Below are positions 3,859 through 58,942 of a stretch of 60,102 bases of DNA, in pieces. Every line of letters starts with the position of its first letter. The first letter of the stretch is position 1. This stretch comes from a virus. Taxonomy: Duplodnaviria; Caudoviricetes. Location: positions 1-60,102 of the IMG/VR virus record IMGVR_UViG_3300022221_000008; one strand, 5' to 3'. A program made the position numbers and the translations under genes. The notes beneath the pieces were generated by a model. It was not told the DNA's origin, made no database searches, and was given only the letters and a program-made list of their open reading frames with translations.

Positions 3859-3870
3859 GGAGTATTGAGC

Positions 3871-15122: not shown

Positions 15123-15163
15123 GAGAGAGCACAGGAAGGAGGTTAGGCACTCTAGCGCAGGCG

Positions 15164-37049: not shown

Positions 37050-37059
37050 GGAGTTTTAT

Positions 37060-39241: not shown

Positions 39242-39251
39242 GAGCCCCCCC

Positions 39252-39632: not shown

Positions 39633-39635
39633 TGA

Positions 39636-40520: not shown

Positions 40521-40521
40521 C

Positions 40522-40863: not shown

Positions 40864-40866
40864 TAG

Positions 40867-43881: not shown

Positions 43882-43890
43882 GAGAAGCCC

Positions 43891-44253: not shown

Positions 44254-44254
44254 C

Positions 44255-44794
44255 ATGCCGGCCCGCCACATTTCGACCACCGACATTCCCAGCGACGTGC
44301 TGATTTCCCTGGCGCGCGATCCCGACCAGTTCGAGAAGGGCATCCGGCGCTGGCAGGAAGCCGAAACCACCGCCAAGCGGGAGCAAAGGCGCCTCGCCGA
44401 GGTCGAGAAGAAGGCCTTGACGGCAACCGCCGCCCTGGAGGCCCTCAAGGCCGCCCACGAGGAAAGGGTCGCCGAGCGCGAACGGGTCTTCGCGATCCGT
44501 CAGGAAGCCCTCGATCAGCGGGAAACCAAGATCAACCAGCATGCGGCCCGCGACACCGAGGCTCGCCAAGTCCTCAAGGCCGACCGTGAGGAACTGGAGA
44601 ACGCCACCAAACAGTTGCAAGAAGGCGAAAGGCGCCTGAGCGACCGCGAGGTGGAGCTAGATAACCGGGCCGAAAAATTGAAGGCGGACGAGATCGCCTT
44701 GGCGGCGGTCGAAACCTTGATGAAGGAGCGCGAAGCCCGTCACAAGGCCCAATGGGTCGAACTCCAGGAGCGACTCAAGGGCTTTGCTTGGTGA
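44255..44794 (+). CDS. Coiled-coil protein
   Basis: E/R/K/A-rich heptads; GGAGG RBS. Confidence 0.65.
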   Translation: MPARHISTTDIPSDVLISLARDPDQFEKGIRRWQEAETTAKREQRRLAEVEKKALTATAALEALKAAHEERVAERERVFAIRQEALDQRETKINQHAARDTEARQVLKADREELENATKQLQEGERRLSDREVELDNRAEKLKADEIALAAVETLMKEREARHKAQWVELQERLKGFAW

Positions 44795-45477
44795 CACCGG
44801 TCCTGATTCAGGCGGGCGGCCGGGGGCTTCGGCTGCACCCGCTGACCGACCATAATCCCAAGCCGCTCCTGAAAGTTGGTGGTAAGCCGATCCTGGAAAC
44901 CATCATCGACGGCTTCGCGGCCCAGGGCTTCCGCCGCATCTGGCTTTCGGTCCACTACCGGGCCGACCTGATCAAGGGCCATTTCGGCGACGGCTCCGAG
45001 AAAGGCGTGAAGATCAAGTACCTGGAGGAAAAGTCCCCCCAGGGCACCGGCGGCGCGCTCAGATTGTTGCCGCGCTGGGACAAGCCCTTCATCGTTTCCA
45101 ACGCGGATGTCTTGACAAAAATCAACTATGGGCACCTAATGGAGGCACACGCGCGGGCCAATGTGCTGGCCACCGTGTGCGCCGGCCTCTACCAGCAACA
45201 GATCAAATATGGCGTCATTGATAGCGAGGATGGCCGTCTTTTGCGGGTGCGCGAGAAGCCAATCGAGAACTTCCAGGTCAACGCCGGCATCTATGTGCTC
45301 GAACCCGATGCCCGCGACTTCGCGCCCGAAGGCCCCTTCGACATGACCGACCTGATCGAACGCCTGCCCCAAGCGGGCGCCAGGGCGGGCGCGGCGGTCT
45401 ACCCCCTGACCGACTACTGGTGCGACATCGGCGGCTTCGAGGACTACGCCAGGGCCAATGCGGAGTGGAGCCATTGA
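44791..45477 (+). CDS. Sugar-phosphate nucleotidyltransferase (PtmE/LegX-like, no CBS domains)
   Basis: IQAGGRGLRLHPLTDHNPKPLLKVGGKPILE, GTGGAL, VNAGIYVL and YWCDIG motifs. Confidence 0.85.
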   Translation: MTPVLIQAGGRGLRLHPLTDHNPKPLLKVGGKPILETIIDGFAAQGFRRIWLSVHYRADLIKGHFGDGSEKGVKIKYLEEKSPQGTGGALRLLPRWDKPFIVSNADVLTKINYGHLMEAHARANVLATVCAGLYQQQIKYGVIDSEDGRLLRVREKPIENFQVNAGIYVLEPDARDFAPEGPFDMTDLIERLPQAGARAGAAVYPLTDYWCDIGGFEDYARANAEWSH

Positions 45478-46046
45478 GCGTTCTGGGCCTGATCCCCGCG
45501 AGGGGCGGTTCCAAGCGCATCCCGCGCAAGAACATCCGCCTTCTGGGCGAACACCCCTTGGTGCTCTGGACCATCTATCAGGCCAAGGAATCGGTCATGC
45601 TCGACGGCCTGGCGGTTTCGACCGAGGACCGGGAGATCGCCGATCTCTGCTGCGTTCATTGCGACGTGATCCGCCGCCCGCCAGAAATGGCCCACGATAC
45701 CGCCTCGTCCTATCCCCTGATGCTTCATGCGCTCGACCTCTGCGGCGGGGCCTACGAGTATCTCTGCCTCCTGCAGCCGACCAGCCCCTTCCGGGACGCC
45801 GACGATATCGACCAGTGCATCGCGGCCCTGAAGGTTTCGGGCGCCCCCGCCATGGCCTCCTTCACGCAAGGCGGTAAGGTGCCCAACGGCGCCATCTATG
45901 CCGCCCACACGTCCTGGCTAAGGGAGGGCGGGAACTTCGACGGCCCGGCGGTGGAGCCCTTCTGGATGCCGCCCGAAAGAAGTTTGGATATCGACACCGA
46001 GGACGACTGGAGCGAGGCCGAAACGGCCCTGATGGCAATGGCATGA
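45474..46046 (+). CDS. neuA: CMP-nonulosonic acid synthetase (acylneuraminate cytidylyltransferase, NeuA/LegF)
   Basis: IPARGGSKRIPRKN, LLQPTSPFR, PNGAIY and SLDIDTEDD motifs. Confidence 0.92.
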   Translation: MSVLGLIPARGGSKRIPRKNIRLLGEHPLVLWTIYQAKESVMLDGLAVSTEDREIADLCCVHCDVIRRPPEMAHDTASSYPLMLHALDLCGGAYEYLCLLQPTSPFRDADDIDQCIAALKVSGAPAMASFTQGGKVPNGAIYAAHTSWLREGGNFDGPAVEPFWMPPERSLDIDTEDDWSEAETALMAMA

Positions 46047-46990
46047 ACCCTTTCCAGGACCGCTACGACGCCTGCAACGGCGGCACCAATGCATCGAAAT
46101 ATGCCGAATTGCCCGATTTTCCGTGCATTATCGACGTGGAATTGACCTCTTCGTGCAATTTCAGGTGCTTGATGTGTCCCACCGGCAACAGATCGCTAAA
46201 GCGTCCTGCGGTTCTCATGACGGACAAGACCTTGCTGGCGATTATCGACCAGTGTGTGGAGCACGATACGGCGCTGCGCTTTATCGGCTGGGGCGAGCCG
46301 ACGCTGCATCCCGTCCTGGTCCCGGCCTTGCGGCAGGCCAGGGGCCTTCTGACGCACATCAACACCAACGGCTCCAAGATCACGCCGGAATTCGCCTTTG
46401 ACCTCGTGGAGGCCGGACTTTCCTCGATCAAGTTCTCTTTCCAGGGCGTCGATGCGGAATCCTACGAGGAGATGCGGCAGATCAGGTTTTTCGAGGGCAT
46501 GCTGAAGGCCATCAAGGTCATGCGAAGCGCACGCGGCGACAGAGCCCTGCCCTACATCGCGGCCTCGACCTCCATCACCTACGAGACGCCCAAGATGGTC
46601 GAGGACTTCCGCGCCCGGCTCGGGCCGTTGGTCGATCGCCTGTCGATCGGTCACACGACCTTCGACTTCATGGACATGAGCGCCGTGCGGCTCAGGCCGG
46701 GACAAAGGGCCATGCTGGAGCGCCTCAAGGGCTTGTCGAGCGATGCCAAGCAGCACCCCAGTCCTTGCCCGGAGGTCTTCCAGAAGCTCTCCATCCAGGC
46801 CGACGGGTCGGTGGTGCTCTGCTGCAACGATTTCGATGGCACGGTCAATCTGGGAAACGTGAACGCCATCCCGCTTTCCGATCTGTGGCGCCATCCCAAG
46901 ATCGAGGCCTACCGGAAACGGCTGGTGAGGGATGATTACGACGCGCCGCTGTGCCGGGACTGCTACGACTATATGGACCTGACCGGATGA
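46043..46990 (+). CDS. Radical SAM / SPASM-domain protein
   Basis: [21 protein letters not shown]...[10 protein letters not shown]...GNV and CRDC motifs. Confidence 0.9.
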
Positions 46991-47634
46991 CCGCCCTGGC
47001 GGCTCAGTACCGGCTCAAGGTGCCGCTCGGGAAGCAAAATCTCGCCATCGACGTGGTGGTCAGCGAACTGACCACCGAGGCCGACCGGGCCGCCATCGCG
47101 GAAATAGCCCAGGGCTTCGAGACGGCGATCGATGTCGGCTGCTTTACCGGCGGGTCTTCCAGCGCCATCCTGTCGGGCGGGGCCTCACTGGTCTGCGTCG
47201 ATACCTTCCGGGGCACGGCGGGAGACTATACCGGCCGGGTGCCGGGCTGGATAGTCCTGCGTATTCTGGAGGCCCGGCTGGAACCTCACCGGGGGCGGTT
47301 TTCGGTCTTCATGGGCAGTAGCGACCAGGCCGCGAAGCTTCTCCGGCCAGCCGACTTCATCTTCATCGACGCCGCTCATGACTACAGGTCCGTGATGGCC
47401 GATATCGCCGGCTGGCTGCCCCTGGTGAAGCCGGGCGGTATTCTGGCGGGGCACGATTTCGACAAGGCCCTGCTCGACCGTCCGCGCGAAGACCTCACGC
47501 CATATCTGGACTACGAGTATTATCAGGGCTTGCATTACGGCGTCGTGGCTGCGGTGCGGGACAGCCTCGCATCCTTCCACTGCGCCGAAGACCCGGACAG
47601 CACGGTCTGGTGGACCGAAAAGGAGATGATATGA
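46987..47634 (+). CDS. Class I SAM-dependent methyltransferase (Methyltransf_24-like)
   Basis: [31 protein letters not shown] and [10 protein letters not shown] motifs. Confidence 0.85.
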
Positions 47635-48848
47635 CCCCTCTTTGGAGTGCCGAAGTCGAGGCCCGTATCCGCCGGGAAGCCGTCAACCTCGACCCGCAGC
47701 GACCGCCCGAGACGGTCCAGATGTGCAAGCGCTGCGTCATGACCAACCAGCGCCCGAGGATCGTGTTCGACGAAGAGGGCGTCTGCTCGGCCTGCCGCTA
47801 TGCTGAACGGAAGAAGACCGAAATCGACTGGGCCGAGCGCGAACGGGAGTTGCGTGAGTTGCTCAACATGAATGTTGCCGGAGCGTACGATGTGATCGTT
47901 CCTTCGTCCGGTGGCAAGGACTCTTCCTTTGTGGCCAGCACTTTGAGGGATACTTACGGCCAGCACGTTCTCTGTGCCCGCTGGGCGCCCTTCATGACGA
48001 CTGAGATCGGTGAGCGCAATTGGCAGGCCCTTATTCATGCCGGATTTGACACGGTCACGGGCCAGCCCAACGGGCTTCTGCATAGAAAGCTCGCCCGGCT
48101 GGCTCTTGAGTTTGTGGGGGACCCTTTTGTACCTTTCATTTTTGGCCAACTCTGTTACCCGCTTCATGTTGCGGTGCAAAATGATGTCCGTTTAGTGTTT
48201 TTCGGAGAAAATGGCGAAACGCTCTATGGTGGTGACACCGCTGCGGAGAACAAGCCCTGCTGGGGTTCGGCCGATTGGGAGCGGGTTTATATGAAGGGGG
48301 CGGGTGTTGATAGAATTGTCCAAATCGGCTTGGACCTTGGCGCCATTGAGCCTGATGAAGTGAAGCGGGTTAGCCCATTTTATCGACTCCCTGAAATTGA
48401 TAATCCGCCGGAATTTCATTGGACAAGTTATTATTTGCCTTGGTTCCCACAGGAAAATTTCTACATTGCTGCGGAAAAAACAGGTTTTGAGCCGAATGAA
48501 GAACGATCTCAGGGCACGTACTCAAGATATGCATCGATTGACGACAAAATGGATAACGTTCACTATTTTTTCGGGTATTTGAAATTTGGCATTGGACGTT
48601 GCACATCAGATGCCGCTCATGAGATCAGAGACGGAGAGCTTACGAGGGAAGAGGGACTCTCTTTGGTGGCGAAATACGATGGTGAATATCCATCGCGCCA
48701 TTTGTCAGAGTGCCTTGATTATCTTGATATGGACAAAGAGCAATTTGGTCGTGTTGTTGAGCGTTTCGATATGGCTAGGAACGGCAAGGCGGGTTTGGGC
48801 AATGTGGCGCTCGGACCAGTTAGGCAAGGATTGGCAAGGCAGGCTTAA
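47631..48848 (+). CDS. N-acetyl-sugar amidotransferase (WbuX/PseA/PtmG family)
   Basis: [26 protein letters not shown]-loop SGGKDSS, and [20 protein letters not shown] motifs. Confidence 0.88.
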
Positions 48849-49646
48849 GTGCTCGCCTTCAGATTAATAGCTAGGCTCGATATAAGAAACGAGTTCCTGA
48901 TCAAGACTCGGCAATGCGAGGGTGTCAGAAAGGTCGGCGACCCGGCAGAATATGCGGAGAGGTACGATGCGGCAGGAATCGATGAAATTATCTTCTTGGA
49001 TGTTGTTGCCTCTCTATATGGTCGCAATAGTCTTGCTGGCATTGTTGGCCATGTTGGAGAATCTGTGTTTGTCCCTCTCTCGTCTGGTGGCGGCATTGGT
49101 TCGATTGATGGTTCGCGCGCTCTGTTCCTCGCCGGAGCGGACAAAATTATACTCAATAGTGCGGCAGTGCATGACAACGGACTTCTCAGCAGACTTGCCA
49201 GAAAGTTCGGCTCCCAGGCGGTCGTTCTCCAACTCGACGCCAAGCGGCGGAACGGCTCATGGGAAGCCTATTGCGAGGGCGCAAGACAACCGACCGGACG
49301 GGACGCGATAGAATGGGCCAGGGAGGCGGTGGACCGGGGCGCGGGGGAAATCCTTGTCACGTCGATTGACCGGGAAGGCACGTCGAAGGGCTTCGATCTT
49401 GACCTCGTGCGGGCGGTATCGTCTGCGGTCACGGTCCCTGTGGTGGCGGCGGGCGGTTTCGGCCAGGCATCCGATGCGCTGGCCGCCCAACAAGCGGGTG
49501 CCTCCGGGGTAGCCATCGCGGGCGCCCTACACTATAATCGGGTCAAGCTCGACGAAATAAGAGCGGTCTTGGCCAAAGCTGGGGTGAATGTTCGATGCGG
49601 TGTTTCGTCACCGGTGCTTGCGGATTTATCGGCTCCCATCTCGTAG
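48849..49646 (+). CDS. hisF: HisF-like cyclase subunit associated with sugar amidation (WbuZ-like)
   Basis: RLIARLDI, VGDP, GGGI, GADKI and GAGEILVTSIDREGT motifs; adjacent to the amidotransferase. Confidence 0.85.
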   Translation: MLAFRLIARLDIRNEFLIKTRQCEGVRKVGDPAEYAERYDAAGIDEIIFLDVVASLYGRNSLAGIVGHVGESVFVPLSSGGGIGSIDGSRALFLAGADKIILNSAAVHDNGLLSRLARKFGSQAVVLQLDAKRRNGSWEAYCEGARQPTGRDAIEWAREAVDRGAGEILVTSIDREGTSKGFDLDLVRAVSSAVTVPVVAAGGFGQASDALAAQQAGASGVAIAGALHYNRVKLDEIRAVLAKAGVNVRCGVSSPVLADLSAPIS

Positions 49647-50497
49647 AGACGCTTGTGGCCGAGGGTCACGACGTAACCGGTCTGGCGCTCTACAATCCAA
49701 GTCAATCCTGGGGCTGGCTGGAGGGCATCGAGGCCCGCAAGGCCCACGGCGACGTGCGCGATGCCGAGCAGATGCGCCGCCTGATCAAGGGTCACGAGGC
49801 GGTCTTTCACCTCGCGGCCCAGATCGAAGTTCCCTACAGCTTCGTCGCCCCCCGTTCCTTCATCGACACCAACGTCACCGGCACGCTGAATGTCCTGGAA
49901 GCCTGCCGGGCCACTGGTGCGAAGCTGATCCACACCTCTTCCTCGGAGGTCTACGGCACCGCCGCCTACACGCCCCAGGACGAGGCTCATCCGCTTCAGG
50001 CGCAGTCGCCCTATGCGGCTTCGAAGATCGCCGCCGATGCCCTGGTGACCTCCTATCATCGCAGCTACGATCTGCCGGCGGTGATCCTGCGGCCCTTCAA
50101 CACCTACGGACCCCGCCAGTCCGAGCGGGCCGTCATTGCCAGCATCATCCTGCAGGACTTGCGCGACGGCGCCGTGACCCTGGGCGACCTGCGCCCCCAT
50201 CGGGACTTCCTCTATGTCGAGGACACCGTGCGGGCCTTCATGGCGGTCATGAAGCTGTCGGGCGGCGTCTACAATGCCGGCACGGGCATATCGATCAGCA
50301 TCAAGGACTTGGCGGCCAAGATCATCACCTATGCGGCCGCGCAGGGAGAGTACCGCCCTGAGAATGCCGAGGTCCATCTGTTGCGGGCTTCCTCGGCCAA
50401 GCTCTTCGCCGAAACTGGTTGGCGGCCCCGAGTTTCCCTGGATGAGGGTCTGAAACGCACAAAGGAGTGGTGGCATGATTCCGTTAGCCGTTCCTAA
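49595..50497 (+). CDS. legB: NDP-GlcNAc 4,6-dehydratase (LegB-like)
   Basis: VTGACGFIGSHL, VFHLAAQIEVPYSFVAPRSFIDTNVTGT, LQAQSPYAASK and RPFNTYGPRQSERAVI closely match LegB. Confidence 0.85.
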   Translation: MRCFVTGACGFIGSHLVETLVAEGHDVTGLALYNPSQSWGWLEGIEARKAHGDVRDAEQMRRLIKGHEAVFHLAAQIEVPYSFVAPRSFIDTNVTGTLNVLEACRATGAKLIHTSSSEVYGTAAYTPQDEAHPLQAQSPYAASKIAADALVTSYHRSYDLPAVILRPFNTYGPRQSERAVIASIILQDLRDGAVTLGDLRPHRDFLYVEDTVRAFMAVMKLSGGVYNAGTGISISIKDLAAKIITYAAAQGEYRPENAEVHLLRASSAKLFAETGWRPRVSLDEGLKRTKEWWHDSVSRS

Positions 50498-51323
50498 TCT
50501 GACCGGCAAGGAGGGCGAGTACGTGGCCGAGGCCATCGCGTCCGGCTGGGTCGGTCCCGAGGGGCCGTTCGTGGAGCGTTTCGAGGGAATGGTTCGTGAA
50601 GTATCGGGTCGGCGCTGGGCCATTGCGACAATTACGGGCAGCGCGGCCTTGCACGCCTCCGCAACGGCGCTGGGTTTCGCCGGTGACTGTGTGGTGGTGA
50701 TGAGGAAGTCTTTTCCTGCCGCCAGGAATGTATTTCGTTCCCTTGGGTGCGACGTTGTTTTTTCTGAAGGCGGGGAAAACCATGATATTGCGGCCTATTC
50801 TCCGGGCACCATGAAATGGCCTGTGCTTGTGGACGCCGCCCCAGCCATAGGAAACAAACCCATCGGAACTGTTGAATGCTACAGCTTTGCCGCCAATAAG
50901 ACCGTGACCTGTGGACATGGCGGGGCGGTTGTCGGCGACGATCCGAGCTTGGAGGGCCGGGTCACAATGCTGATCAACAATCGCACCGGCAAATACAACT
51001 ACCGCATGGCCAATATCAACGCCGCCATCGGCTGTGCCCAGATGGAACGGCTGGAGGAATTCCGGGAGATCAAACGCAATATCTGGCAGCGCTATGCCGA
51101 TGCTGGGCTGCCCATGATCGACCGTGGCCCGAGCCGCTGGATGTCCACTATTGAGCAGCCGAAAGTTTTTTTCATAGGCGGTTTTAGGCACCGTCTAGAG
51201 GGCGTAGGCGGTTTTAGGCACCGTCTAGAGGCCGATTGGGGAATCAGCCTCCCCTGTTCCACATCTCTCACCAGGGATGATCAGGACAAGGTGATCAAGG
51301 CTTGCGAAGAATCCTTGCGATAG
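50475..51323 (+). CDS. legC: PLP-dependent sugar aminotransferase (LegC/DegT family), shortened
   Basis: IPLAVPNL...SGWV, GSAALH, DAA, SFAANKTVTCGHGG and YNYRMANINAAIGCAQME motifs. Confidence 0.8.
   Translation: MIPLAVPNLTGKEGEYVAEAIASGWVGPEGPFVERFEGMVREVSGRRWAIATITGSAALHASATALGFAGDCVVVMRKSFPAARNVFRSLGCDVVFSEGGENHDIAAYSPGTMKWPVLVDAAPAIGNKPIGTVECYSFAANKTVTCGHGGAVVGDDPSLEGRVTMLINNRTGKYNYRMANINAAIGCAQMERLEEFREIKRNIWQRYADAGLPMIDRGPSRWMSTIEQPKVFFIGGFRHRLEGVGGFRHRLEADWGISLPCSTSLTRDDQDKVIKACEESLR
51175..51231. repeat. Tandem duplication with 30-bp period inside the aminotransferase
   Basis: TAGGCGGTTTTAGGCACCGTCTAGAGG at 51175 and 51205 (GGFRHRLE twice). Confidence 0.9.
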
Positions 51324-52225
51324 AGAGCGGGCGCCACGACGCCACGCCGCTGAAGCCGGTCGTGAGTGAACTGCGCCGCCAGGGCTGTCATGTCCTGTGC
51401 TACGACGTGAAAGCCGGCGCAATCGAGAATGCTTTCAAGAAGCCCTGGGATATCGTTCTGCTGCTGGGCGACCGCTGGGAATCCCTGGCCGTCGCGACTG
51501 TCGCGGTCGTGGCGAACGTCCCCATCGCGCACATCCATGGTGGAGAGGCGACGTTCGGTTCCCATGACAACCAGATCAGGGATGCGATCTCCAAGCTGGC
51601 CAGCATCCATTTCGTCGCCAACGACGCCTTCAAGTGCCGGCTCGTGCTGGGCCTGGGCGAGGATGGCTGGCGCGTCCACGTCACGGGGGCACCGGGCCTG
51701 GACAACCTGACCAACCTCCCGCCCCGGAGCCCGGAGGCGTATTTCGTCTGCACCTATCACCCTGCCACCCTGCAGGAGAACTCCGACCTGCCGGCCCTTC
51801 TCTCTGCTCTCGACCGCTTCCCCGACTACCAACAAATCTGGACGGGCGTAAACGATGACCCAGGAAGCAAGGAGATCGCCGCTTTACTGGCCGGCCGGGA
51901 TGTTCGGCTACTGTCTGACCGTGAGTACCATCTGCTGTGCCGCCATGCTGCTGCGGTGGTGGGCAATTCCTCCAGCGGCATCATCGAGGCTCCGACGCTC
52001 GGCGTGCCGACGGTGAATGTCGGAACGCGGCAAGAGGGCCGGCTCCAGGGGCCGTCGGTCTTTGATTGCGATGCGAAGTCGATCCACTATGCCCTTGTGC
52101 GGGCGATCAAATACGGCGGGCCTTATGAGAACCCCTATGGCGAACCGGGCGCTTCGGCCAAGATCGCCCGCGTTCTTTCGACAATCGACCTCGAGGGCAT
52201 ACAGGTGAAGCGATGGTCTGTGTAG
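51302..52225 (+). CDS. neuC: Hydrolysing NDP-sugar 2-epimerase (NeuC/LegG)
   Basis: LLGDRWE, IAHIHGGE, GAPGLD, TYHPAT, GNSSSGIIEAP and VNVGTRQEGR motifs. Confidence 0.9.
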   Translation: MRRILAIESGRHDATPLKPVVSELRRQGCHVLCYDVKAGAIENAFKKPWDIVLLLGDRWESLAVATVAVVANVPIAHIHGGEATFGSHDNQIRDAISKLASIHFVANDAFKCRLVLGLGEDGWRVHVTGAPGLDNLTNLPPRSPEAYFVCTYHPATLQENSDLPALLSALDRFPDYQQIWTGVNDDPGSKEIAALLAGRDVRLLSDREYHLLCRHAAAVVGNSSSGIIEAPTLGVPTVNVGTRQEGRLQGPSVFDCDAKSIHYALVRAIKYGGPYENPYGEPGASAKIARVLSTIDLEGIQVKRWSV

Positions 52226-53013
52226 TGGCGGAAATCGGAATTAATCATCAAGGCTCCCTGAATCTAGCTCATACCCTAATTAATCATGCCGCCCAGGCGG
52301 GCGCGGACGCGGTGAAGTTTCAGCTCTACCGTCCCTTTCTCCTGTCGCCGCCTGGTCCCTGGCGGGACATGCTCAAGACGCTGGCCCTTCCGACGGGGCT
52401 CTATCCGGACCTCAAAGCCTATGCGGAAGCCCTCGATCTGGAATTCCTCTGCACGCCCTTCGATGTCATGTCCTTGGAATTCCTGGTCGATATGGGCGTG
52501 AAGCGGCTCAAGATTTCCTCCGGCGGGTTAAGGGATATGGCCCTTCTGGAGGCGGCTCGATCGAGCGGTTTGGACTTGATCCTCTCGACCGGCATGGCGA
52601 CCGTTTCCGACATCCGGGAGGCCATGCGCGCGCTCAACTGGCCCAAGGTCTTCATGCTGCAATGCACCAGTTGTTACCCGACGCGGCCCTCGGACGTTCA
52701 CCTGCGGGTCATGGACACCTACCGGCGGGAGTTCGACGCACTGCCGGGCCTGTCGGACCACACCACCGGTATCGCGGTGCCCATCGCGGCCACAGCTTTG
52801 GGCGCCAAAATGATCGAGAAGCACCTGACCCTGGACCGTGATGCGGAGGGGCCGGATCATCAAGCCTCCATCGAGCCGGCGCAGTTCAAGGCCATGGTCG
52901 AGGGCATCCGGGAAGCAGAACAGGCTTTGGGCTCGGATGAGAAGGCCCCGCTCGACTGCGAGGCGCCGGTGATGAAGATCAGAAATGAGAGGGAAAAATG
53001 GCGATCATTATAG
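52213..53013 (+). CDS. neuB: Nonulosonic acid synthase (NeuB/LegI), lacking the C-terminal SAF domain
   Basis: VAEIGINHQG, GADAVKFQ, LKISSG, ILSTGM, QCTSCYP, GLSDHT and IEKHLTLDR...GPDHQAS motifs. Confidence 0.92.
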   Translation: MVCVVAEIGINHQGSLNLAHTLINHAAQAGADAVKFQLYRPFLLSPPGPWRDMLKTLALPTGLYPDLKAYAEALDLEFLCTPFDVMSLEFLVDMGVKRLKISSGGLRDMALLEAARSSGLDLILSTGMATVSDIREAMRALNWPKVFMLQCTSCYPTRPSDVHLRVMDTYRREFDALPGLSDHTTGIAVPIAATALGAKMIEKHLTLDRDAEGPDHQASIEPAQFKAMVEGIREAEQALGSDEKAPLDCEAPVMKIRNEREKWRSL

Positions 53014-53480
53014 GAAATGGCGGGCACGCAAGGGCGCTTGCCCATCGATATTTCCCTGGTGAGAATGTGCGGATGCTTGGCCCCAATGAAGAAATACCAA
53101 TCGAGGGGGACTTAATAATTGGCATGGGGGACGTAAAAACAAGACGGGTAATCTTTAGACTTCTTGAGAGCAGAATCGCATATAATCAGCAGATTATGGC
53201 CGGCGTTCTTATCGGCCCGCATGTTCATTTAGGAAAGAACATTCTTATCAATACTGGCGCCCAGATTGACCATGATTGTGTTATTGGCGACCACTGTTCC
53301 ATCGCTCCCGGCGCCATTCTTTGCGGCGGCGTGACCCTTGGCGAGGGCTGCTTTATCGGGGCCGGCGCCATCATCGTGGAGAACGTGACCCTTGAGCCCA
53401 ATACCTTCATACCTGCCGGATCGCTGGTTGTTAAACAGGACGATATCCGCATGCCGCAGCGCGTGGTACAGAACGGTTGA
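52998..53480 (+). CDS. neuD: Hexapeptide-repeat sugar acetyltransferase (NeuD/PglD/LegH family)
   Basis: IIGNGGHA and INTGAQIDHDCVIG motifs; left-handed beta-helix repeats. Confidence 0.85.
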   Translation: MAIIIGNGGHARALAHRYFPGENVRMLGPNEEIPIEGDLIIGMGDVKTRRVIFRLLESRIAYNQQIMAGVLIGPHVHLGKNILINTGAQIDHDCVIGDHCSIAPGAILCGGVTLGEGCFIGAGAIIVENVTLEPNTFIPAGSLVVKQDDIRMPQRVVQNG

Positions 53481-54246
53481 GCCGCTTCTTCTCTGGCGGG
53501 CTCGTCTGAATTGCGGGCCGGCCATTCAAGACCGCAGCCCCCTGATTACGGTCTATATCCCGACATATAATCGGGAGGAACTTCTGATGACGAGGGCGCT
53601 GCCCAGCGTTCTCAAGCAGACCTATGGAAACATAGAAATCATTGTTGCTGCCCATGGCAGCAGCGAAGAGAACATAAGAGCCTTGGCTCGTGCAAGCGTC
53701 GAAGTGTATTTTGCCGAGCGTGACTTCGTTCCTCTTTGTGTGCCTCGTTATAGCGCCTATCCACCGACGGCGGAGAACCACTGGCTCGCCGGCCCTGTCG
53801 CGCCGGCCAATGCCGCGCTCAGGCTCGCCAAGGGAGACTGGATTGCAAGGATCGACGACGATGATACCTGGACCCCGGACCGCCTGGAGAAGCTTCTGTG
53901 CTTCGCTCAGGCGAACGATTTCGAGTTCGTATCGGCTGCGCACGAGACGCACGAGGGCAAGGTTGCTCCCTACGACCTGATGGGAACGAAGATCGGCGGC
54001 ACGCAGACCTGGCTTTACCGCTCCTATTTGAGGTTCTTCCGCTACAATCCCGACTGCTGGCGCAAGACTTGGCACCGGGTCAACGACACCGATCTACAAC
54101 ATAGGATGTGGCGTGCCGGCGTCCGCATGGGATATCTAGACGAAGTGGTGGCAAAAGTGTTACCAAGGCCCGGCGAAAACGCCGTGGGCTTAAGAGCCTA
54201 TCGGGAAGACCGGGCGAACAAGGAACGCCAAATGGCCTTCGATTAG
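53392..54246 (+). CDS. Family 2 glycosyltransferase (start uncertain)
   Basis: ITVYIPTYNREELL..RALPSVLKQTYGNIEIIV and GDWIARIDDDD motifs. Confidence 0.85.
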   Translation: MSPIPSYLPDRWLLNRTISACRSAWYRTVEPLLLWRARLNCGPAIQDRSPLITVYIPTYNREELLMTRALPSVLKQTYGNIEIIVAAHGSSEENIRALARASVEVYFAERDFVPLCVPRYSAYPPTAENHWLAGPVAPANAALRLAKGDWIARIDDDDTWTPDRLEKLLCFAQANDFEFVSAAHETHEGKVAPYDLMGTKIGGTQTWLYRSYLRFFRYNPDCWRKTWHRVNDTDLQHRMWRAGVRMGYLDEVVAKVLPRPGENAVGLRAYREDRANKERQMAFD

Positions 54247-54289
54247 CCGCTGGGGTAAGGCTGCAACAGCAACAAGCGGAGCTTCAGCA

Positions 54290-54754
54290 ATGTTTTCCAT
54301 CAGGACTTCCATCCATGGCCGCCGGCTTGCCCTTTCGTCCAGCGGCGGCATCGTTTCCGATCCCTCGGGCTCGACCCAGGGCGCCGACCGCTCGGCCCAG
54401 ATGTGGGGCCGGGGTTTGTTCGAAACCGTTTCCGGTGCCGTCGGGGCGATCTCGAACTCCGGTGTCAGCATCGTCTCCAGCGACTCCACGTCCGGTTCCT
54501 CCATGCCGGTTGCGGCCCCCGTCCAGGGCGTCGAAAAGGAGATCGTGTTCCAGACCTCGGCGACGGCCCTGGTTCTCCATACCACCGCCACCACGATCAA
54601 GTTCAACTCGACCCTGGCCGAATCCGCCGCCGGGGGTTCGACCACCCTCACCGTGACCGGCGCCGCCGCCGGTATCGGTGGAACGCTGGTCCTGCGCGGC
54701 TTGTCTGCGACGGCCTGGCAGATCAAGAGCGCAACCGTGAGTGTATCTTCCTGA
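54290..54754 (+). CDS. Ser/Thr/Gly-rich putative virion protein
   Basis: Beta-rich composition; IRTSIHGRRLAL N-terminus; the true start may be slightly upstream. Confidence 0.5.
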   Translation: MFSIRTSIHGRRLALSSSGGIVSDPSGSTQGADRSAQMWGRGLFETVSGAVGAISNSGVSIVSSDSTSGSSMPVAAPVQGVEKEIVFQTSATALVLHTTATTIKFNSTLAESAAGGSTTLTVTGAAAGIGGTLVLRGLSATAWQIKSATVSVSS

Positions 54755-54763
54755 GGAGCTTGA

Positions 54764-55699
54764 ATGACTAACAGCGCTGGGGCCGCGAAACAGCGGAAGA
54801 TCGCCATTCTCGGTACGACGCCCTCCAGGATGCAGGCGCCTTTAAAGGACGAGTCCTGGGAAATCTGGACCATCGGCCCGGGTGGCAAGGACGCCAACAG
54901 ATGGAGCCGGTTGTTCGAAACCCACACGGTCTGGCCGTTGGATTTCGGCGAACTGAAGGATGACAAGTCCTATCTGGACGACCTCTCGAAGGTCGATGGC
55001 GAGCAGTCGGTCTACAGCATCGTGGACATGAAAACCCACTTGCCGCGCTGGGCGCACGATCATGGCAAGAACGACGATTGGCTCAAGGCCAACGTGCGGG
55101 GCGAATGGAAGACCAACGTGGTGATCGACCGCGAGGCGCTTTTCACCAAGTACCGGCGCATGTGGTTCTCCACCTCGATCTGTTATGCGCTCGCCTTGGC
55201 CATCGAGGAGGGCGCGACCGATATCGGCTGCTGGGGCATCGACCTGGAATCGGGCGAGGAATACATTTCGCAGCACGCCGGCTGTGCCCATTTTCTGGAC
55301 TTGGCCCGGCTTCTGGGCATCAACCTGCACTTCCCCAACGGTTGCGGCCTGACCCGCGATCTCAATCCCTATCCGGATCGCTACGAGACGCACCTTTCCC
55401 TTACCTTAGAGAAGAAGGCCGCCTGGCTGCAGCACATGATTGGTGAGCACGAGCCGCAATACGAAGCGGTGCGGGCCGAAATGTTCCGGATCGAGGGCGC
55501 CAGCATCATCCTGAAAAAGATTCTGGCTCGCAACACGCCCGTTACCCAGGAGGAGATCGCCCTCGCCGACCAGGAATTGATGAATGCCAACCGAAAGCAG
55601 GGTCAACTAGCCTCCAACATCAACCACCTGAAGGGCGAGTTGTCCGCCACCCAGTATTACCGCCGCATGTATGTCTGGGGGATGATCGACCCGGCATGA
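54764..55699 (+). CDS. Candidate CstII/Maf-like (sialyltransferase-fold) glycosyltransferase with C-terminal coiled coil
   Basis: KIAILGTTPS and STSICYALALAIEEGATDIGCWGIDL resemble the two conserved GT42/Maf motifs (recalled, not searched). Confidence 0.5.
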   Translation: MTNSAGAAKQRKIAILGTTPSRMQAPLKDESWEIWTIGPGGKDANRWSRLFETHTVWPLDFGELKDDKSYLDDLSKVDGEQSVYSIVDMKTHLPRWAHDHGKNDDWLKANVRGEWKTNVVIDREALFTKYRRMWFSTSICYALALAIEEGATDIGCWGIDLESGEEYISQHAGCAHFLDLARLLGINLHFPNGCGLTRDLNPYPDRYETHLSLTLEKKAAWLQHMIGEHEPQYEAVRAEMFRIEGASIILKKILARNTPVTQEEIALADQELMNANRKQGQLASNINHLKGELSATQYYRRMYVWGMIDPA

Positions 55700-57291
55700 G
55701 CGCCCTTGACGAACTGGTCCAAAAAATCGAGCGGATGAGCCCGGATCAGCTCAAGGAGCTGGATCGGCAAATCCTCGAAGACCCAGAGTTCGGTAACCGC
55801 TGGGCGCCCAATGCGGGGCCGCAATACGACGCCTACATTTCAGAGGCTGACATACTATTGTATGGCGGCCAAGCCGGAGGCGGGAAAAGCGGCCTGATCA
55901 TTGGACTGGCTTTGACGCGGCATAGGCGCTCGCTTCTGATGCGCCGCCAGTACACCGATCTCGGCGCCTTGCAGGACGATTGCCTAGAGAAATACGGGAC
56001 GCGCGTCGGCTATTCCGGCCAGCCGCCGGCCCGCCTGAAGACCAAGGACGAGCGTTTGATCGAGTTCGGTGCCGCCAAGATGCCGGGCGACGAGGAGCAT
56101 TGGAAGGGCCAGCCCCATGACTTTCTCGGCCTGGACGAGGCGTCCCAGTTTCTTGAGTCCCAGGTTCGCTTCCTGCTTGGCTGGCTGCGCTCGACCAGTC
56201 GGGGCCAGCGTTGCCGGGCCGTCCTGGCGACCAACCCGCCCGACAAGCCCGCCGAGGGCCAATGGCTGGTGAAGATGTTCGGCCCCTGGCTCGACCCCAG
56301 CCATCCCCTGCACCCGACGCCCAATGGGATGCTGCGCTGGGTCGTTTCGGACGAAGAGGGTCACGACAAGTGGGTTGACGGGCCGGAAGACGTGCGGATC
56401 GGCGGCAAGTTGGTGAGGCCGTCTTCCCGAACCTTCATCCCGGCGGCCCTCAAGGATAATCCTTTCCTGGCCAAGACCGAATATGCCCGGCAACTGGACG
56501 GCCTGCCCGAGCCCCTGCGGAGCGCCATCCGCGACGGCAACTGGATGATCGCCCACGAGGACGACCCCATGCAGGTCATTCCGACCAATTGGGTCATCGC
56601 CGCGCAGGAACGCTGGACCCGCGACCCGCCGGATGCGCCCATGTGCGCCATCGGAGTCGATGTGGCCATGGGCGGGAAGGCACAGACCGTCCTGGCGCCG
56701 CGTTACGATTGCTGGTTCGCCGAACTGACCGCGATCCCCGGCGTCCAGACCCCCACCGGGCGGGATATCGCGGCGGAAGTCATCAAGGTGCGGCGCAATT
56801 CGGCCAAGGTTTGCATCGACATGGGCGGCGGGTACGGCAGCGGAGCCTACGAATGCCTGCAGGAGAACATCGGGGCCGAGAACGTGATCGGGTTCAAGGG
56901 CGCCGACGCGGTTGCGAGCCGGACCAAGGACCGCTTGCTGCCCTTCGCGAACAAGCGCGCCGAGGTTTACTGGCGCTTCCGCGAGGCGCTCGACCCCGAC
57001 CAGGAGGGTGGCAGTCCCATTATGCTGCCGCCGGATTCCGAACTGGCCGCCGATCTGGTGTCGGTGCGCCGGCTCGATATCGACACGACGCGCGGTAAAA
57101 TCCAGTTGGAGCTGAAAGAAAAGCAGGCCCAGCGCCTGGGGCGCTCGCCGGACAAGGGCGATGCGGTCGTGATGGCCCACGACACCGGCCCCACCTATCT
57201 GACCCATGGGGAGATTTGGCGCGACACGAACCGAATGCGGCGCAAGCCGGTCGTGATCCGGGGCCATGCGAACAGAAAGCGTCGGCGATGA
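55696..57291 (+). CDS. terL: Terminase large subunit
   Basis: Walker A YGGQAGGGKS, Walker B LGLDEA, LATNP, nuclease IGVDVA and RSPDKGDA motifs. Confidence 0.92.
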   Translation: MSALDELVQKIERMSPDQLKELDRQILEDPEFGNRWAPNAGPQYDAYISEADILLYGGQAGGGKSGLIIGLALTRHRRSLLMRRQYTDLGALQDDCLEKYGTRVGYSGQPPARLKTKDERLIEFGAAKMPGDEEHWKGQPHDFLGLDEASQFLESQVRFLLGWLRSTSRGQRCRAVLATNPPDKPAEGQWLVKMFGPWLDPSHPLHPTPNGMLRWVVSDEEGHDKWVDGPEDVRIGGKLVRPSSRTFIPAALKDNPFLAKTEYARQLDGLPEPLRSAIRDGNWMIAHEDDPMQVIPTNWVIAAQERWTRDPPDAPMCAIGVDVAMGGKAQTVLAPRYDCWFAELTAIPGVQTPTGRDIAAEVIKVRRNSAKVCIDMGGGYGSGAYECLQENIGAENVIGFKGADAVASRTKDRLLPFANKRAEVYWRFREALDPDQEGGSPIMLPPDSELAADLVSVRRLDIDTTRGKIQLELKEKQAQRLGRSPDKGDAVVMAHDTGPTYLTHGEIWRDTNRMRRKPVVIRGHANRKRRR

Positions 57292-58941: not shown

Positions 58942-58942
58942 C

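What the first reader, a model, noticed from the sequence alone, without database searches (positions are those of the whole stretch)
44791..55699. Phage-encoded pathway from nucleotide sugar to CMP-nonulosonate plus transferases: candidate system for coating the virion in a sialic-acid-like sugar
Seen: a tightly packed, mostly overlapping gene run encoding a nucleotidyltransferase, NeuA/LegF, radical SAM-SPASM, methyltransferase, WbuX/PtmG-type amidotransferase, HisF-like protein, LegB, LegC, NeuC/LegG, NeuB/LegI, NeuD/LegH, GT2 and a candidate sialyltransferase. It sits in the late region among structural-type genes, and its last gene overlaps terL. Established: LegB-C-H-G-I-F is the full CMP-legionaminic acid route, PtmG/PseA-type enzymes make acetamidino derivatives, and bacteria O-link these sugars to Ser/Thr of flagellin. 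Inference: the cluster has no flippase, Wzy or membrane protein (against O-antigen conversion), and the genome has no recognisable DNA-modification or polymerase genes (against DNA hypermodification). The most economical reading is cytoplasmic glycosylation of the phage's own virion proteins with a modified legionaminic acid. About 18% of a 60-kb genome is spent on it.
Basis: partly seen in the sequence, partly recalled or inferred. Interest (0 to 1): 0.9.

Follow-up and report, generated by a model that had tools for sequence, protein, structure and literature searches.

The report
Phage sialic-like sugar and spike cassette
An uncultured 60-kb sediment phage carries, next to its DNA-packaging and head genes, the enzymes for an activated sialic-acid-like (legionaminic-type) sugar, a sialyltransferase-shaped enzyme and a small spike-like protein, so it probably sugar-coats its own particle, though no experiment has tested this.

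Summary
Window 44752-55699 is one co-oriented gene run. It encodes a PtmE-like nucleotidyltransferase, a CMP-sugar synthetase, rSAM-SPASM, a methyltransferase, WbuX/WbuZ, LegB, LegC, NeuC/LegG, NeuB/LegI, NeuD/LegH, GT2 and a 311-aa orphan (u311) whose stop overlaps the terL start.

New here:
- All 17 related IMG/VR loci carry u154 directly upstream of u311, and 16 of 17 also show GT2. The Leg enzymes come and go; one complete relative has no NeuB.
- u311 models as a CstII/GT42- and MptE-like Rossmann domain plus a helical hairpin. It belongs to an unnamed, apparently mostly viral family of at least 2,836 cluster representatives.
- The u154 model matches only phage spike, fibre and baseplate domains.
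- The u154-u311 pair recurs right after the major head gene in unrelated P22-like phages.

Best reading (0.55): cytoplasmic glycosylation of a virion protein, most likely u154, with a legionaminic-type, probably acetamidino, sugar. Acceptor, sugar identity and enzyme activities are all inferred. Earlier notes of this scan describe similar cassettes on other phage DNA. My eight literature searches found no paper describing one.

The parts
44752..45477 (+). Sugar-1-phosphate nucleotidyltransferase (PtmE-like). It may start at an internal codon near 44791.
   Evidence: PF00483, 116 bits. Best NCBIfam hits are Arch_glmU and mannose-1-P guanylyltransferase, both below cut-off. Present in L006, L010, L011 and L013.
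45420..46046 (+). CMP-nonulosonate synthetase-like cytidylyltransferase, 208 aa. Only the N-terminal ~125 residues match the models.
   Evidence: PF02348, 70.8 bits. TIGR03584 PseF, 103 bits against a cut-off of 206. Homologues in 8 of 13 relatives with at least 7 kb upstream.
46043..46990 (+). Radical SAM enzyme with a SPASM/twitch domain; tailoring role unknown.
   Evidence: PF04055 + PF13186. Best PDB sequence hit is the C-terminal domain of BtrN, E 5e-8.
46951..47634 (+). SAM-dependent methyltransferase (Methyltransf_24).
   Evidence: PF13578, 57 bits. Homologues next to u311 in L007, L010, L015 and L020.
47610..48848 (+). WbuX-type N-acetyl-sugar amidotransferase (makes acetamidino groups). 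Lies in a low-GC patch.
   Evidence: TIGR03573, 293.9 bits, over its cut-off of 203.2. GC 0.495 in 48001-49000. Found in 12 of 13 relatives with at least 7 kb upstream.
48849..49646 (+). WbuZ/HisF-like cyclase subunit of the amidotransferase.
   Evidence: TIGR03572, 243 bits against a cut-off of 299.7; PF00977, 189.5 bits. No HisH/WbuY-type glutaminase was seen in the window.
49595..50497 (+). LegB-type NDP-GlcNAc 4,6-dehydratase.
   Evidence: TIGR04180 LegB, 335 bits (cut-off 475), against PseB at 44 bits.
50475..51323 (+). LegC-type PLP aminotransferase, compact at 282 aa. Carries an in-frame perfect 30-bp tandem duplication at 51175-51231.
   Evidence: TIGR04181, 134.8 bits, against PseC at 94.7. 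The SFxxNK lysine motif is kept in the alignment to perosamine synthetase 3bn1. Tandem repeat.
51302..52225 (+). Hydrolysing NDP-sugar 2-epimerase (NeuC/LegG), lacking about 45 N-terminal-domain residues.
   Evidence: TIGR03568, 221.9 bits against a cut-off of 235.9. Best PDB hit is GDP/UDP-diNAcBac 2-epimerase 5xvs/5zlr, E 1.2e-41.
52213..53013 (+). Nonulosonate synthase (NeuB/LegI) without a SAF domain.
   Evidence: PF03102, 239.7 bits. TIGR03569, 276.5 bits, against PseI at 199.9. Best PDB hit is the 290-aa chain 6ncs. Ranks 1-59 of the 120 listed homologues carry PF03102 but no SAF family PF08666.
52998..53480 (+). NeuD/PglD/LegH-type hexapeptide N-acetyltransferase, compact at 160 aa.
   Evidence: TIGR03570, 109 bits against a cut-off of 160.8; PF00132.
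53392..54246 (+). Soluble family-2 (GT-A) glycosyltransferase.
   Evidence: PF00535, 74 bits. Only generic GT2 hits in the PDB. Present in 16 of 17 related loci.
54290..54754 (+). u154: a 154-aa protein with 30% Ser+Thr, a conserved N-terminal motif (TSIHGRRLGLSSSG) and a gp9/gp10-like spike/fibre beta-domain. Candidate glycan acceptor.
54764..55699 (+). u311: an N-terminal GT42/MptE-like Rossmann domain (about residues 9-199) plus a C-terminal antiparallel helical hairpin (207-303). Candidate nonulosonate transferase.
55696..57291 (+). Large terminase; its start overlaps the u311 stop (ATGA).
   Evidence: phrog_979, E 1.9e-30. Sequence read.
57216..58193 (+).
   Evidence: PF01370, 148 bits. 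Best NCBIfam hits are dTDP-glucose dehydratase, ArnA C-terminal domain and UDP-xylose synthase, all below cut-off. Its homologue lies inside the cluster in L006.
58190..58645 (+). GNAT acetyltransferase between terL and the portal gene.
   Evidence: PF00583; phrog_1249, E 2e-16. The same PHROG sits after terL in L015, L016, L017 and L019 and in the P22-like structural module of L003.
3865..4191 (+). Second S/T-rich small protein (108 aa, 31% Ser+Thr), directly after the major capsid gene. An alternative or additional acceptor candidate.
   Evidence: Composition. phrog_18004. Conserved after the MCP gene in relatives, in two copies in L016-L019. Not detectably related to u154 by BLASTP.

Best explanation
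This is a phage-borne protein-glycosylation cassette that acts in the host cytoplasm late in infection.

Core of the cassette:
- a small spike- or fibre-like virion protein rich in Ser/Thr (u154);
- a sialyltransferase-shaped enzyme (u311) encoded right behind it and translationally coupled to terL;
- a soluble GT2;
- a WbuX amidotransferase.

In this phage the core is joined by a complete de novo route: NDP-GlcNAc -> (LegB, LegC, LegH/NeuD) NDP-diNAcBac -> (LegG/NeuC) 2,4-diacetamido-2,4,6-trideoxymannose -> (LegI/NeuB + PEP) legionaminic-type acid -> (cytidylyltransferase) CMP-sugar. WbuX/WbuZ probably convert one N-acetyl group to an acetamidino group. The methyltransferase and the radical-SAM enzyme add tailoring of unknown kind.

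u311 would transfer the CMP-activated sugar. GT2 would transfer an NDP-hexose made through the nucleotidyltransferase and the second SDR. The acceptor would be Ser/Thr of u154 or another virion protein, such as the S/T-rich protein after the capsid gene. The particle would then leave the cell carrying a sialic-acid-like coat.

Shown by sequence and comparison: the gene families, their order, the conservation of the core, the predicted folds, and the recurrence of the u154-u311 pair in head modules.

Inferred: every enzymatic step, the Leg stereochemistry, the amidino and methyl decoration, the donor of u311, the acceptor, and that u154 is in the virion.
For: 1. Gene content. Leg-type models beat Pse-type ones: LegB 335 against PseB 44 bits, LegC 135 against PseC 95, NeuB 277 against PseI 200. 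The NeuC-type epimerase is closest to the solved LegG of Acinetobacter.

2. Position. The run is co-oriented with and overlaps terL. It is followed by SDR, GNAT, portal, capsid and tail genes.

3. Lineage-wide conservation.
- 17 IMG/VR loci, with MCP 69-86% identical where the MCP gene lies within the locus, have u311 just upstream of terL, wherever the locus reaches terL.
- u154 lies directly upstream of u311 in 17 of 17.
- GT2 is present in 16 of 17.
- WbuX is present in 12 of the 13 loci with at least 7 kb upstream.
- The compact LegC, NeuC, NeuB and NeuD forms are kept at 30-56% identity, which argues for function rather than decay.

4. u311 fold.
- Foldseek's best PDB hits are CstII, Cst-I and the Pasteurella sialyltransferase (E 3e-4 to 5e-3).
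- A broadened profile gives 7 of 11 sub-threshold PDB hits to GT42 sialyltransferases, aligned on the same motif.

6. The pair in other phages. A jackhmmer search links u154-like ORFs that lie directly upstream of u311-like genes in 4 of 10 distant contigs. In L002 and L003 the pair sits immediately after the major head protein gene.

7. What is absent. The cluster has no membrane or export genes. The record has no hmC/hmU- or deazaguanine-type DNA modification genes and no tyrosine integrase.
Against: - No experiment or expression data exist.
- u311 has no sequence-level membership in GT42 or PF01973.
- The u154-u311 pair also occurs in a complete P22-like genome with neither NeuB nor a CMP-transferase, and a complete relative lacks NeuB. 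Either the host supplies the donor, or u311 does not need a nonulosonate.
- A u311-like gene stands alone before terS in Microcystis phage Mvi-Yong1342-1.
- S/T richness is common in phage fibres: this phage's own fibre is 26%. It does not by itself mark an acceptor.
- 6 of 10 distant u311-like contigs have no HMM-detectable u154.
- Of the 8 enzymes scored against a pathway-specific NCBIfam model, 7 score below the curated cut-off.
- LegC and NeuC lack segments present in characterised enzymes.
- No glutaminase partner for WbuZ was found.
Confidence: 0.55

Rival explanations
1. Host-surface remodelling. The enzymes make or re-tailor a nonulosonate, for example converting acetamido to acetamidino. 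u311 and GT2 then place it on a host structure such as flagellin, pilin, an S-layer protein or a lipid-linked glycan. This would mask receptors, stop progeny from sticking to debris, or exclude other phages. u154 would be an ordinary fibre protein that merely lies nearby.
For: - WbuX is the most constant enzyme (12 of 13 loci).
- Minimal cassettes hold only activation and tailoring genes plus the transferases (L010, L011). That fits editing of a host-made sugar.
- Flagellin glycosylation with these sugars is cytoplasmic and needs no membrane machinery (established knowledge; eLife paper PMC7591256, seen in listing and start of abstract only).
- Prophage-encoded enzymes that alter a host capsule nonulosonate are in print (PMC12053666, listing and start of abstract only).
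Against: - The cassette is fused to the packaging and head operon, overlaps terL, and has no integrase in the genome. That fits late lytic expression poorly suited to changing a surface.
- Only 1 hit to u311 was found in 185,579 species genomes, on a 2-kb MAG contig. The lineage is therefore not seen as a common prophage.
- The u154-u311 pair sits right after the major head gene in other phages.
- No host-targeting domain is evident.
Confidence: 0.2
2. u311 is not a glycosyltransferase. It could be an MptE/TPK-like pyrophosphokinase, another small-molecule enzyme, or an assembly factor for the u154 spike, with the helical hairpin acting as a chaperone. Only GT2 would transfer sugar, and the CMP-sugar would have another, unidentified user.
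For: - The pair exists in a complete phage genome without any NeuB or CMP-transferase.
- A u311-like gene occurs without visible sugar genes in the Microcystis phage.
- 0 of 115 family representatives carry any glycosyltransferase Pfam domain.
Against: - Foldseek ranks sialyltransferases first, taking 9 of its 10 best rows.
- The only sequence-level echoes in the PDB are GT42 enzymes, on the nucleotide-binding motif.
- In this lineage a CMP-sugar synthetase and a nonulosonate synthase travel with u311, and no other candidate CMP-sugar user is encoded.
- Invariant polar residues E52, H54, E166, Y167 and Q170 suggest catalysis rather than scaffolding.
Confidence: 0.15
3. DNA hypermodification. 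The sugar is attached to phage DNA to evade restriction.
For: - Virus-encoded glycosyltransferases that decorate DNA are known (Pyle et al. 2024, seen only as a reference-list entry).
- The cassette lies beside the packaging genes.
- The methyltransferase has a weak PHROG label 'DNA methyltransferase' (36.8 bits).
Against: - The whole record has no thymidylate-synthase-family hydroxymethylase and no TGT/DpdA at E<=1.
- No DNA polymerase or nucleotide-metabolism genes were found.
- Nothing here supplies a base to which a sugar could be attached.
- The conserved partner is a spike-like protein.
Confidence: 0.04

Closest known systems
CMP-legionaminic acid pathway of Campylobacter and Legionella (PtmE, LegB, LegC, LegH, LegG, LegI, LegF). 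Pathway order recalled from Schoenhofen et al. 2009, which I did not read here.
   Same: One gene for each step is present, and Leg-type models outscore Pse-type ones.
   Different: - It is encoded by a 60-kb phage.
- The enzymes are compact: SAF-less NeuB, shortened LegC, NeuC and NeuD.
- 7 of 8 pathway-specific NCBIfam scores are below the curated cut-offs.
- No Maf or other known flagellin transferase is present.
- rSAM, methyltransferase and WbuX/WbuZ tailoring genes are added.
GT42 sialyltransferases CstII and Cst-I of Campylobacter jejuni, and the Pasteurella multocida LOS sialyltransferase (PDB 1ro7, 2p2v, 9c08)
   Same: Best structural matches of the u311 N-domain. They share a GxxPS ... 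(T/S)S ... GxD motif layout, seen in the profile alignment.
   Different: - No significant sequence similarity (E 0.55-1.8).
- No PF06002 hit.
- A C-terminal helical hairpin replaces the membrane-association region.
- Catalytic residues were not mapped.
- The family appears mostly viral on the few members with a taxon record.
- The presumed acceptor is a protein, not a lipooligosaccharide.
Maf/MptE-like (PF01973) flagellin nonulosonate O-glycosyltransferases
   Different: PF01973 finds nothing in the window at E<=10. u311 is far smaller than Maf proteins. It lacks their flanking domains; that domain layout is recalled, not checked here.
Virion O-glycosylation in mycobacteriophages (Freeman et al. 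2023, Cell Host Microbe). Seen only as a citation; the paper is not held; details are recalled.
   Same: Phage-encoded glycosyltransferases next to structural genes modify virion proteins in the cytoplasm.
   Different: As I recall it, those phages use host nucleotide sugars and ordinary hexoses and modify C-terminal tails of capsid and tail-tube subunits. This phage brings a whole nonulosonate pathway and what looks like a dedicated acceptor module.
Giant-virus autonomous glycosylation (chlorovirus capsid glycans, mimivirus fibril sugars). Recalled; not searched here.
   Same: The virus encodes both the sugar-nucleotide synthesis and the transferases for its own particle.
   Different: Those are eukaryotic giant viruses with other sugars. 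Here it is a 60-kb podovirus-type phage with a legionaminic-type acid.

Membership tests
CMP-legionaminic acid biosynthesis pathway | LegB: NAD-dependent NDP-GlcNAc 4,6-dehydratase (TIGR04180) | tested here: inconclusive
   Best model by far: 335 bits, E 3e-100, full-length match 2-296 of 297. This is below the curated cut-off of 475. PseB scores 44 bits.
CMP-legionaminic acid biosynthesis pathway | LegC: PLP aminotransferase (TIGR04181) with the catalytic lysine | tested here: inconclusive
   134.8 bits against a cut-off of 420, in two stretches. The protein is 282 aa against 359 model positions. The SFxxNK lysine motif aligns to 3bn1.
CMP-legionaminic acid biosynthesis pathway | LegG: hydrolysing NDP-diNAcBac 2-epimerase | tested here: inconclusive
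   TIGR03568, 221.9 bits against a cut-off of 235.9. The closest solved chain is GDP/UDP-diNAcBac 2-epimerase 5xvs (E 1.2e-41). About 45 residues of the N-domain are missing.
CMP-legionaminic acid biosynthesis pathway | LegI: PEP-condensing nonulosonate synthase (NeuB family) | tested here: met
   PF03102, 239.7 bits, over its cut-off of 22.1, covering 1-241 of 241. TIGR03569 scores 276.5, below its cut-off of 399.65. There is no SAF domain. Leg against Neu specificity was not resolved.
CMP-legionaminic acid biosynthesis pathway | LegF: CMP-nonulosonate synthetase | tested here: met
   PF02348, 70.8 bits, over its cut-off of 22.6. Only profile positions 2-124 of 217 are matched. PseF TIGR03584 scores 103 against a cut-off of 206.
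CMP-legionaminic acid biosynthesis pathway | Product is Leg5Ac7Ac or a derivative (D-glycero-D-galacto configuration) | not testable with these tools
   Needs NMR or MS of the sugar.
WbuX/WbuY/WbuZ acetamidino system | WbuX N-acetyl-sugar amidotransferase | tested here: met
   TIGR03573, 293.9 bits, over its cut-off of 203.2.
WbuX/WbuY/WbuZ acetamidino system | HisH-like glutaminase partner (WbuY) | tested here: not met
   No glutamine amidotransferase family appears among the Pfam or NCBIfam hits of the window ORFs scanned. Only the HisF-like WbuZ is present, at 243 bits against a cut-off of 299.7.
GT42 sialyltransferases (CstII type) | Sequence membership (Pfam/CAZy GT42 signature) | tested here: not met
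   No Pfam hit for u311, for 30 family members, or for 115 distant representatives. PDB profile hits reach only E 0.55-1.8.
GT42 sialyltransferases (CstII type) | GT42 Rossmann-type fold | tested here: met
GT42 sialyltransferases (CstII type) | Catalytic base and phosphate-binding Tyr/Arg in place; CMP-sugar donor | not tested
Family-invariant residues are G17, P26, H54, G158, E166 and Y203.
Maf / MptE-like (PF01973) | PF01973 domain | tested here: not met
   The genome search with PF01973 finds nothing in the window at E<=10. The nearest Atlas cluster with that family scores 0.83, carried by 13% of members, which is a lead only.
Phage virion spike/fibre modules (T4 gp9/gp10-like domain) | Fold of the u154 C-domain | tested here: met
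Phage virion spike/fibre modules (T4 gp9/gp10-like domain) | Presence of the protein in the particle | not testable with these tools
   Needs virion proteomics or cryo-EM.

The most novel reading that the evidence does not exclude
u154 and u311 form a portable 'virion sialylation cassette'. It pairs a dedicated spike-like acceptor with a virus-specific, undescribed family of GT42-like nonulosonate transferases (at least 2,836 clusters at 50% identity). The cassette has spread among unrelated podovirus lineages.

Around it, phages have captured progressively more of the donor pathway:
- none, in the complete P22-like genome;
- activation and amidino tailoring, in complete relative G005;
- the full de novo legionaminic-type route, in this phage.

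Environmental phage particles would then commonly display zwitterionic sialic-acid-like sugars that shape adsorption, stability or recognition.
Probability: 0.35. Interest if true: 0.85.

Novelty: new variant of a known kind. Interest (0 to 1): 0.72.

Why it matters
Virion glycosylation by phage-encoded enzymes is documented for only a few phages, and there it uses host-made ordinary sugars (recalled from Freeman et al. 2023, not read here). A small phage that builds its own activated legionaminic-type sugar and brings its own acceptor and transferase would extend self-sufficient particle glycosylation from giant viruses to ordinary tailed phages.

It would also do three practical things:
- give a function to a large unnamed viral protein family;
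- offer compact enzymes (SAF-less NeuB, short LegC, LegG and LegH) for making rare nonulosonates;
- make a concrete pair (u311 + u154) testable in a laboratory strain of E. coli without culturing the phage.

Surface sialic-like sugars on phages could also bear on particle stability, sticking to debris or mucus, and immune recognition.

Tried and rejected
- Frameshift or assembly error as the cause of the short enzymes. Rejected: three-frame translation across the LegC/NeuC junction shows no hidden coding, the total length leaves no room for missing segments, and the short forms recur in relatives.
- u154 and the S/T-rich protein after the MCP gene as paralogues. BLASTP gave E 6.5, so no support.
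- Megablast of 44000-60102 against GenBank phages: no match.
- terL as a single-protein query against viral contigs: 19 pattern matches, none confirmed.
- u311 profile against species genomes: 1 locus, on a 2-kb MAG contig.
- Host clue from the MCP. There were 10 loci, mostly short MAG contigs. One lies in a 574-kb Bauldia sp. contig (MCP 65%), but its structural region has no sugar genes, and 13 of 14 ORFs there had no Pfam hit.
- Promoter and terminator scan of 36000-55990: counts at chance level, 3 against 4.7 and 19 against 15.9.
- PDB sequence search and Atlas look-up for the 1004-aa ORF 40867-43881: nothing.
I used the three distant u311-like proteins instead, with local HMM and jackhmmer searches.
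- Complex prediction for u311 + u154 was not available, so there is no verdict on binding.
- No RNA holder was listed for the stretch, so there is nothing on expression.
- Literature: eight searches found no paper on a phage-encoded nonulosonate pathway used for virion glycosylation. Freeman et al. 2023 is not held.
- A complete genome with a 127-bp repeat is scored 62% complete by CheckV. This probably reflects the lack of close references.

Full report
WHAT THE WINDOW IS

The 60,102-base window is a whole IMG/VR virus record with a 127-bp direct terminal repeat. The portal gene therefore runs from 58943 across the end to 692.

PHROG and Pfam scans of 69 further ORFs give a T7-like structural module:
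- portal;
- major capsid protein, 3004-3858;
- tail proteins, 4710-8064;
- internal virion proteins;
- fibre, 13396-14811.

The early region has HTH regulators, RusA, a beta-clamp-like protein and a replication initiator. There is no DNA polymerase.

The small terminase lies at 36217-36789, about 19 kb upstream of the large terminase at 55696-57291. The finding occupies the last 11 kb of that gap.

Yes. The u311 stop overlaps the terL start as ATGA.

Three points need correcting.

First, between GT2 and the 311-aa orphan lies a 154-aa ORF (54290-54754; u154) with 30% Ser+Thr.

Second, two more sugar-type genes follow terL: an SDR dehydratase/decarboxylase-like gene (57216-58193) and a GNAT gene (58190-58645).

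Third, the enzymes are divergent and compact. Of the 8 enzymes scored against a pathway-specific NCBIfam model, only WbuX exceeds its curated cut-off.
- NeuB (266 aa) has no SAF domain.
- LegC (282 aa) lacks about 40 residues before the lysine motif but keeps SFxxNK.
- NeuC (307 aa) lacks about 45 residues after its first helix but keeps the GDR.E and HxHGGE segments in the alignment to LegG 5xvs.
- NeuD is 160 aa.

These short forms are not frameshift artefacts. Three-frame translation of the LegC/NeuC junction shows no hidden coding. The same short forms recur in relatives at 30-56% identity.

The best 59 of the 120 listed NeuB homologues carry PF03102 but no SAF family. Several sit on 55-63-kb contigs. 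SAF-bearing forms, including ones from named bacteria, begin at rank 60.

The closest solved NeuB-family chain is also short, at 290 aa (6ncs).

IS IT A CHIMERA?

No sign of one. A Logan contig of 50,720 bp in run X1 spans 42000-60102 with no difference, though X1 may be the source sample. Two other sediment runs, from other studies, hold identical 200-520-bp pieces both inside and outside the cluster at similar low depth.

The comparative data below are a stronger argument, because the cassette is a lineage trait.

WHICH SUGAR?

Leg-type models beat Pse-type ones:
- LegB 335 against PseB 44 bits;
- LegC 135 against PseC 95 bits;
- NeuB 277 against PseI 200 bits.

A NeuC-type hydrolysing 2-epimerase is present, closest to the solved GDP/UDP-diNAcBac epimerase. 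Together with LegB, LegC and NeuD this is the diNAcBac route to a legionaminic-type acid. It is not the Neu5Ac route or the Pse route. The pathway logic is established knowledge that I recalled rather than read here.

The cytidylyltransferase matches PseF best, but only over its N-terminal half.

WbuX, over its cut-off, together with WbuZ points to an acetamidino group. No glutaminase partner was found.

The radical SAM enzyme's C-terminal domain is most like that of BtrN (E 5e-8). From recall, BtrN is a radical SAM sugar dehydrogenase. That is a hint of sugar rather than peptide chemistry.

Stereochemistry and tailoring remain unknown.

THE LINEAGE

u311 has at least 219 homologues, none with a Pfam domain. 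Many lie on 55-63-kb contigs.

A profile search found 17 IMG/VR loci. By tblastn, where the MCP gene lies within the locus it is 69-86% identical, and u311 stands just upstream of terL wherever the locus reaches it.

Gene content upstream is modular and shuffled:
- GT2 in 16 of 17 loci; the 17th has only 719 bases upstream.
- Among the 13 loci with at least 7 kb upstream: WbuX in 12, rSAM in 9, a CMP-transferase in 8, NeuB in 8.

Some cassettes are minimal. L010 runs terS, WbuX, nucleotidyltransferase, CMP-transferase, GT2, u154, methyltransferase, u311, terL.

The complete 56,673-bp relative G005 has a CMP-transferase but no NeuB anywhere.

More distant relatives (MCP about 54%, L033) have terL with none of these genes in the 5 kb upstream.

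GenBank phages hold nothing close. One record has a 27%-identical u311-like gene, and the MCP reaches at most 26% identity.

THE ORPHAN u311

The AlphaFold model has pLDDT 88 and pTM 0.70. It has a Rossmann-like domain (about residues 9-199) and a long antiparallel helical hairpin (207-303).

Foldseek's best PDB hits are the GT42 sialyltransferases CstII (E 3.2e-4), Cst-I and the Pasteurella enzyme. They are followed by ST6GALNAC2, an MptE-like HPPK and thiamine pyrophosphokinase.

VIA-align gives these scores for the N-domain:

At sequence level there is no membership in any named family:
- no Pfam hit for u311, for 30 relatives or for 115 distant representatives;
- PF01973 finds nothing at E<=10.

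A broadened 65-sequence profile does give 7 of its 11 sub-threshold PDB hits to GT42 sialyltransferases (E 0.55-1.8). All align on the segment ...TS..y..A.A...G...I.L.G.D......Y.

The family is large. It has 2,836 representatives at E<=1e-3 among 1.84 billion. The nearest ESM-Atlas clusters are viral on the few members with a taxon record.

I read u311 as a sialyltransferase-like enzyme of an undescribed family. A pyrophosphokinase-like or non-catalytic role is not excluded.

THE PARTNER u154

An ORF of 134-187 aa with 22-35% Ser+Thr lies directly upstream of u311 in every relative, in two or three tandem copies in L013, L015 and L020. An HMM built from 20 of them hits that position in 17 of 17 loci.

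The family has three parts:
- a conserved N-terminal motif, TSIHGRRLGLSSSG;
- a variable linker;
- a beta-rich domain ending in LRG.S.T.W.V.

It has at least 128 homologues, none named.

The model has pLDDT 72. For residues about 40-152 it matches only phage virion modules:

The next chain scores 5.2. BFVD gives 228 hits at E<=1e-3.

THE PAIR ELSEWHERE

Distant u311-like genes (about 30% identity) occur in other phage types.
- In L003, part of a complete 37.7-kb P22-like genome, the order is scaffold, major head protein, a 147-aa protein with 35% Ser+Thr, u311-like, head-tail adaptor.
- In L002 the order is portal, scaffold, major head protein, u154-like, u311-like.

A jackhmmer search seeded with the L002 protein recovers all u154 proteins of the core lineage (E 1e-16 to 1e-36), and also the upstream neighbours of u311-like genes in 4 of 10 distant contigs.

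Among the other six contigs:
- L044 has a u154-like ORF by eye;
- four have other S/T-rich small ORFs adjacent;
- one has none.

The P22-like genome has neither NeuB nor a CMP-transferase.

INTERPRETATION

The constant unit is u154 + u311, usually with GT2 and WbuX. The donor pathway is added to varying degrees.

Four features together fit cytoplasmic glycosylation of a virion protein best, with u154 as the prime acceptor candidate:
- the unit's place in packaging and head operons;
- the virion-type fold of u154;
- the soluble nature of all the enzymes;
- the absence of DNA-modification entry enzymes and of an integrase.

Evidence on the other side:
- the pair exists without any donor genes;
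- the fold evidence for u311 is moderate;
- S/T richness is usual in fibres;
- nothing is known about expression.

I put 0.55 on virion glycosylation, 0.20 on host-surface remodelling, 0.15 on u311 not being a transferase, and 0.04 on DNA modification.

PRIOR WORK

Eight full-text searches found no description of a phage nonulosonate pathway used for virion glycosylation.

For three papers I read only passages: the preprint 10.1101/2022.03.25.485807, and the reference lists of PMC12619734 and PMC12801897.

Freeman et al. 2023 and Pyle et al. 2024 were seen only as citations. Supplements were not consulted.

Earlier notes of this scan report similar cassettes in eight other findings on other phage DNA. 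One has a sialyltransferase-like orphan and an S/T-rich head protein. None is sequence-similar to u311 or to this MCP. Those notes are unchecked AI notes and I do not count them as evidence.

VERDICT

The kind of system, virus-encoded glycosylation of its own particle, is known. The variant appears to be undescribed: a nonulosonate pathway, an unnamed GT42-like viral transferase family, and a dedicated spike-like partner. It is directly testable by co-expressing two small genes.

Noticed in passing
window 51175-51231: A perfect 30-bp tandem duplication (1.9 copies) lies inside the LegC-like gene. It gives an in-frame repeat GGFRHRLE(G/A) near the C-terminus and looks recent.
   Followed up: partly
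window 47610-49646, 50475-51323, 52998-54246: Codon-position GC is uneven within the cluster. GC3 is 0.56-0.68 for WbuX, WbuZ, LegC, NeuD and GT2, against 0.76-0.83 for their neighbours. Overall GC falls to 0.495 at 48-49 kb. This suggests mosaic, stepwise acquisition.
   Followed up: partly
window 3865-4191: A 108-aa protein with 31% Ser+Thr (phrog_18004) lies directly after the major capsid gene. It is conserved in relatives and present in two copies in L016-L019. It is a second candidate decoration protein or acceptor.
   Followed up: partly
window 58190-58645; L003:13128-13574: A GNAT acetyltransferase of phrog_1249 sits between terL and the portal gene here. The same PHROG sits inside the structural module of an unrelated P22-like phage that also has the u154-u311 pair. 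Its role is unknown.
   Followed up: no
window 36217-36789 and 55696-57291: The small and large terminase genes are about 19 kb apart. They are separated by unknown ORFs and the sugar cluster. In relative L010 only a 5-kb minimal cassette separates them.
   Followed up: partly
window 39636-44794: A run of orphan ORFs lies upstream of the cluster. It includes a 1004-aa protein with 21% Ser+Thr (40867-43881) that has no Pfam, NCBIfam, PHROG, PDB or Atlas match, and a coiled-coil 203-aa protein (44183-44794). The 1004-aa protein found no tblastn match in any of the related loci examined.
   Followed up: partly
L013:2637-3146: A NusG-family (possibly RfaH-like) gene stands just upstream of the sugar cassette in one relative. 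It could be an operon-specific antiterminator.
   Followed up: no
L046 (PP496355.1) 6905-7708: Microcystis phage Mvi-Yong1342-1 has a u311-like gene annotated 'type 11 methyltransferase', directly before terS and terL. The label may be carried over from fused relatives: an Atlas cluster joins a u311-like domain to methyltransferase domains.
   Followed up: partly
L035:3512-10001: A prophage-like relative lies in a 574-kb Bauldia sp. MAG contig (MCP 65% identical). About 6.5 kb of ORFs without Pfam hits sit between its scaffold and capsid genes.
   Followed up: partly
window 15370-15981 (- strand) and 14000-17000: A low-GC patch (0.54-0.56) after the fibre gene holds a predicted five-segment membrane protein and small membrane proteins. 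This is possibly the lysis region or a moron region.
   Followed up: no
L008:9069-9938 and L020:800-1810: Two relatives carry a second, diverged u311 paralogue, which suggests more than one linkage or donor.
   Followed up: no
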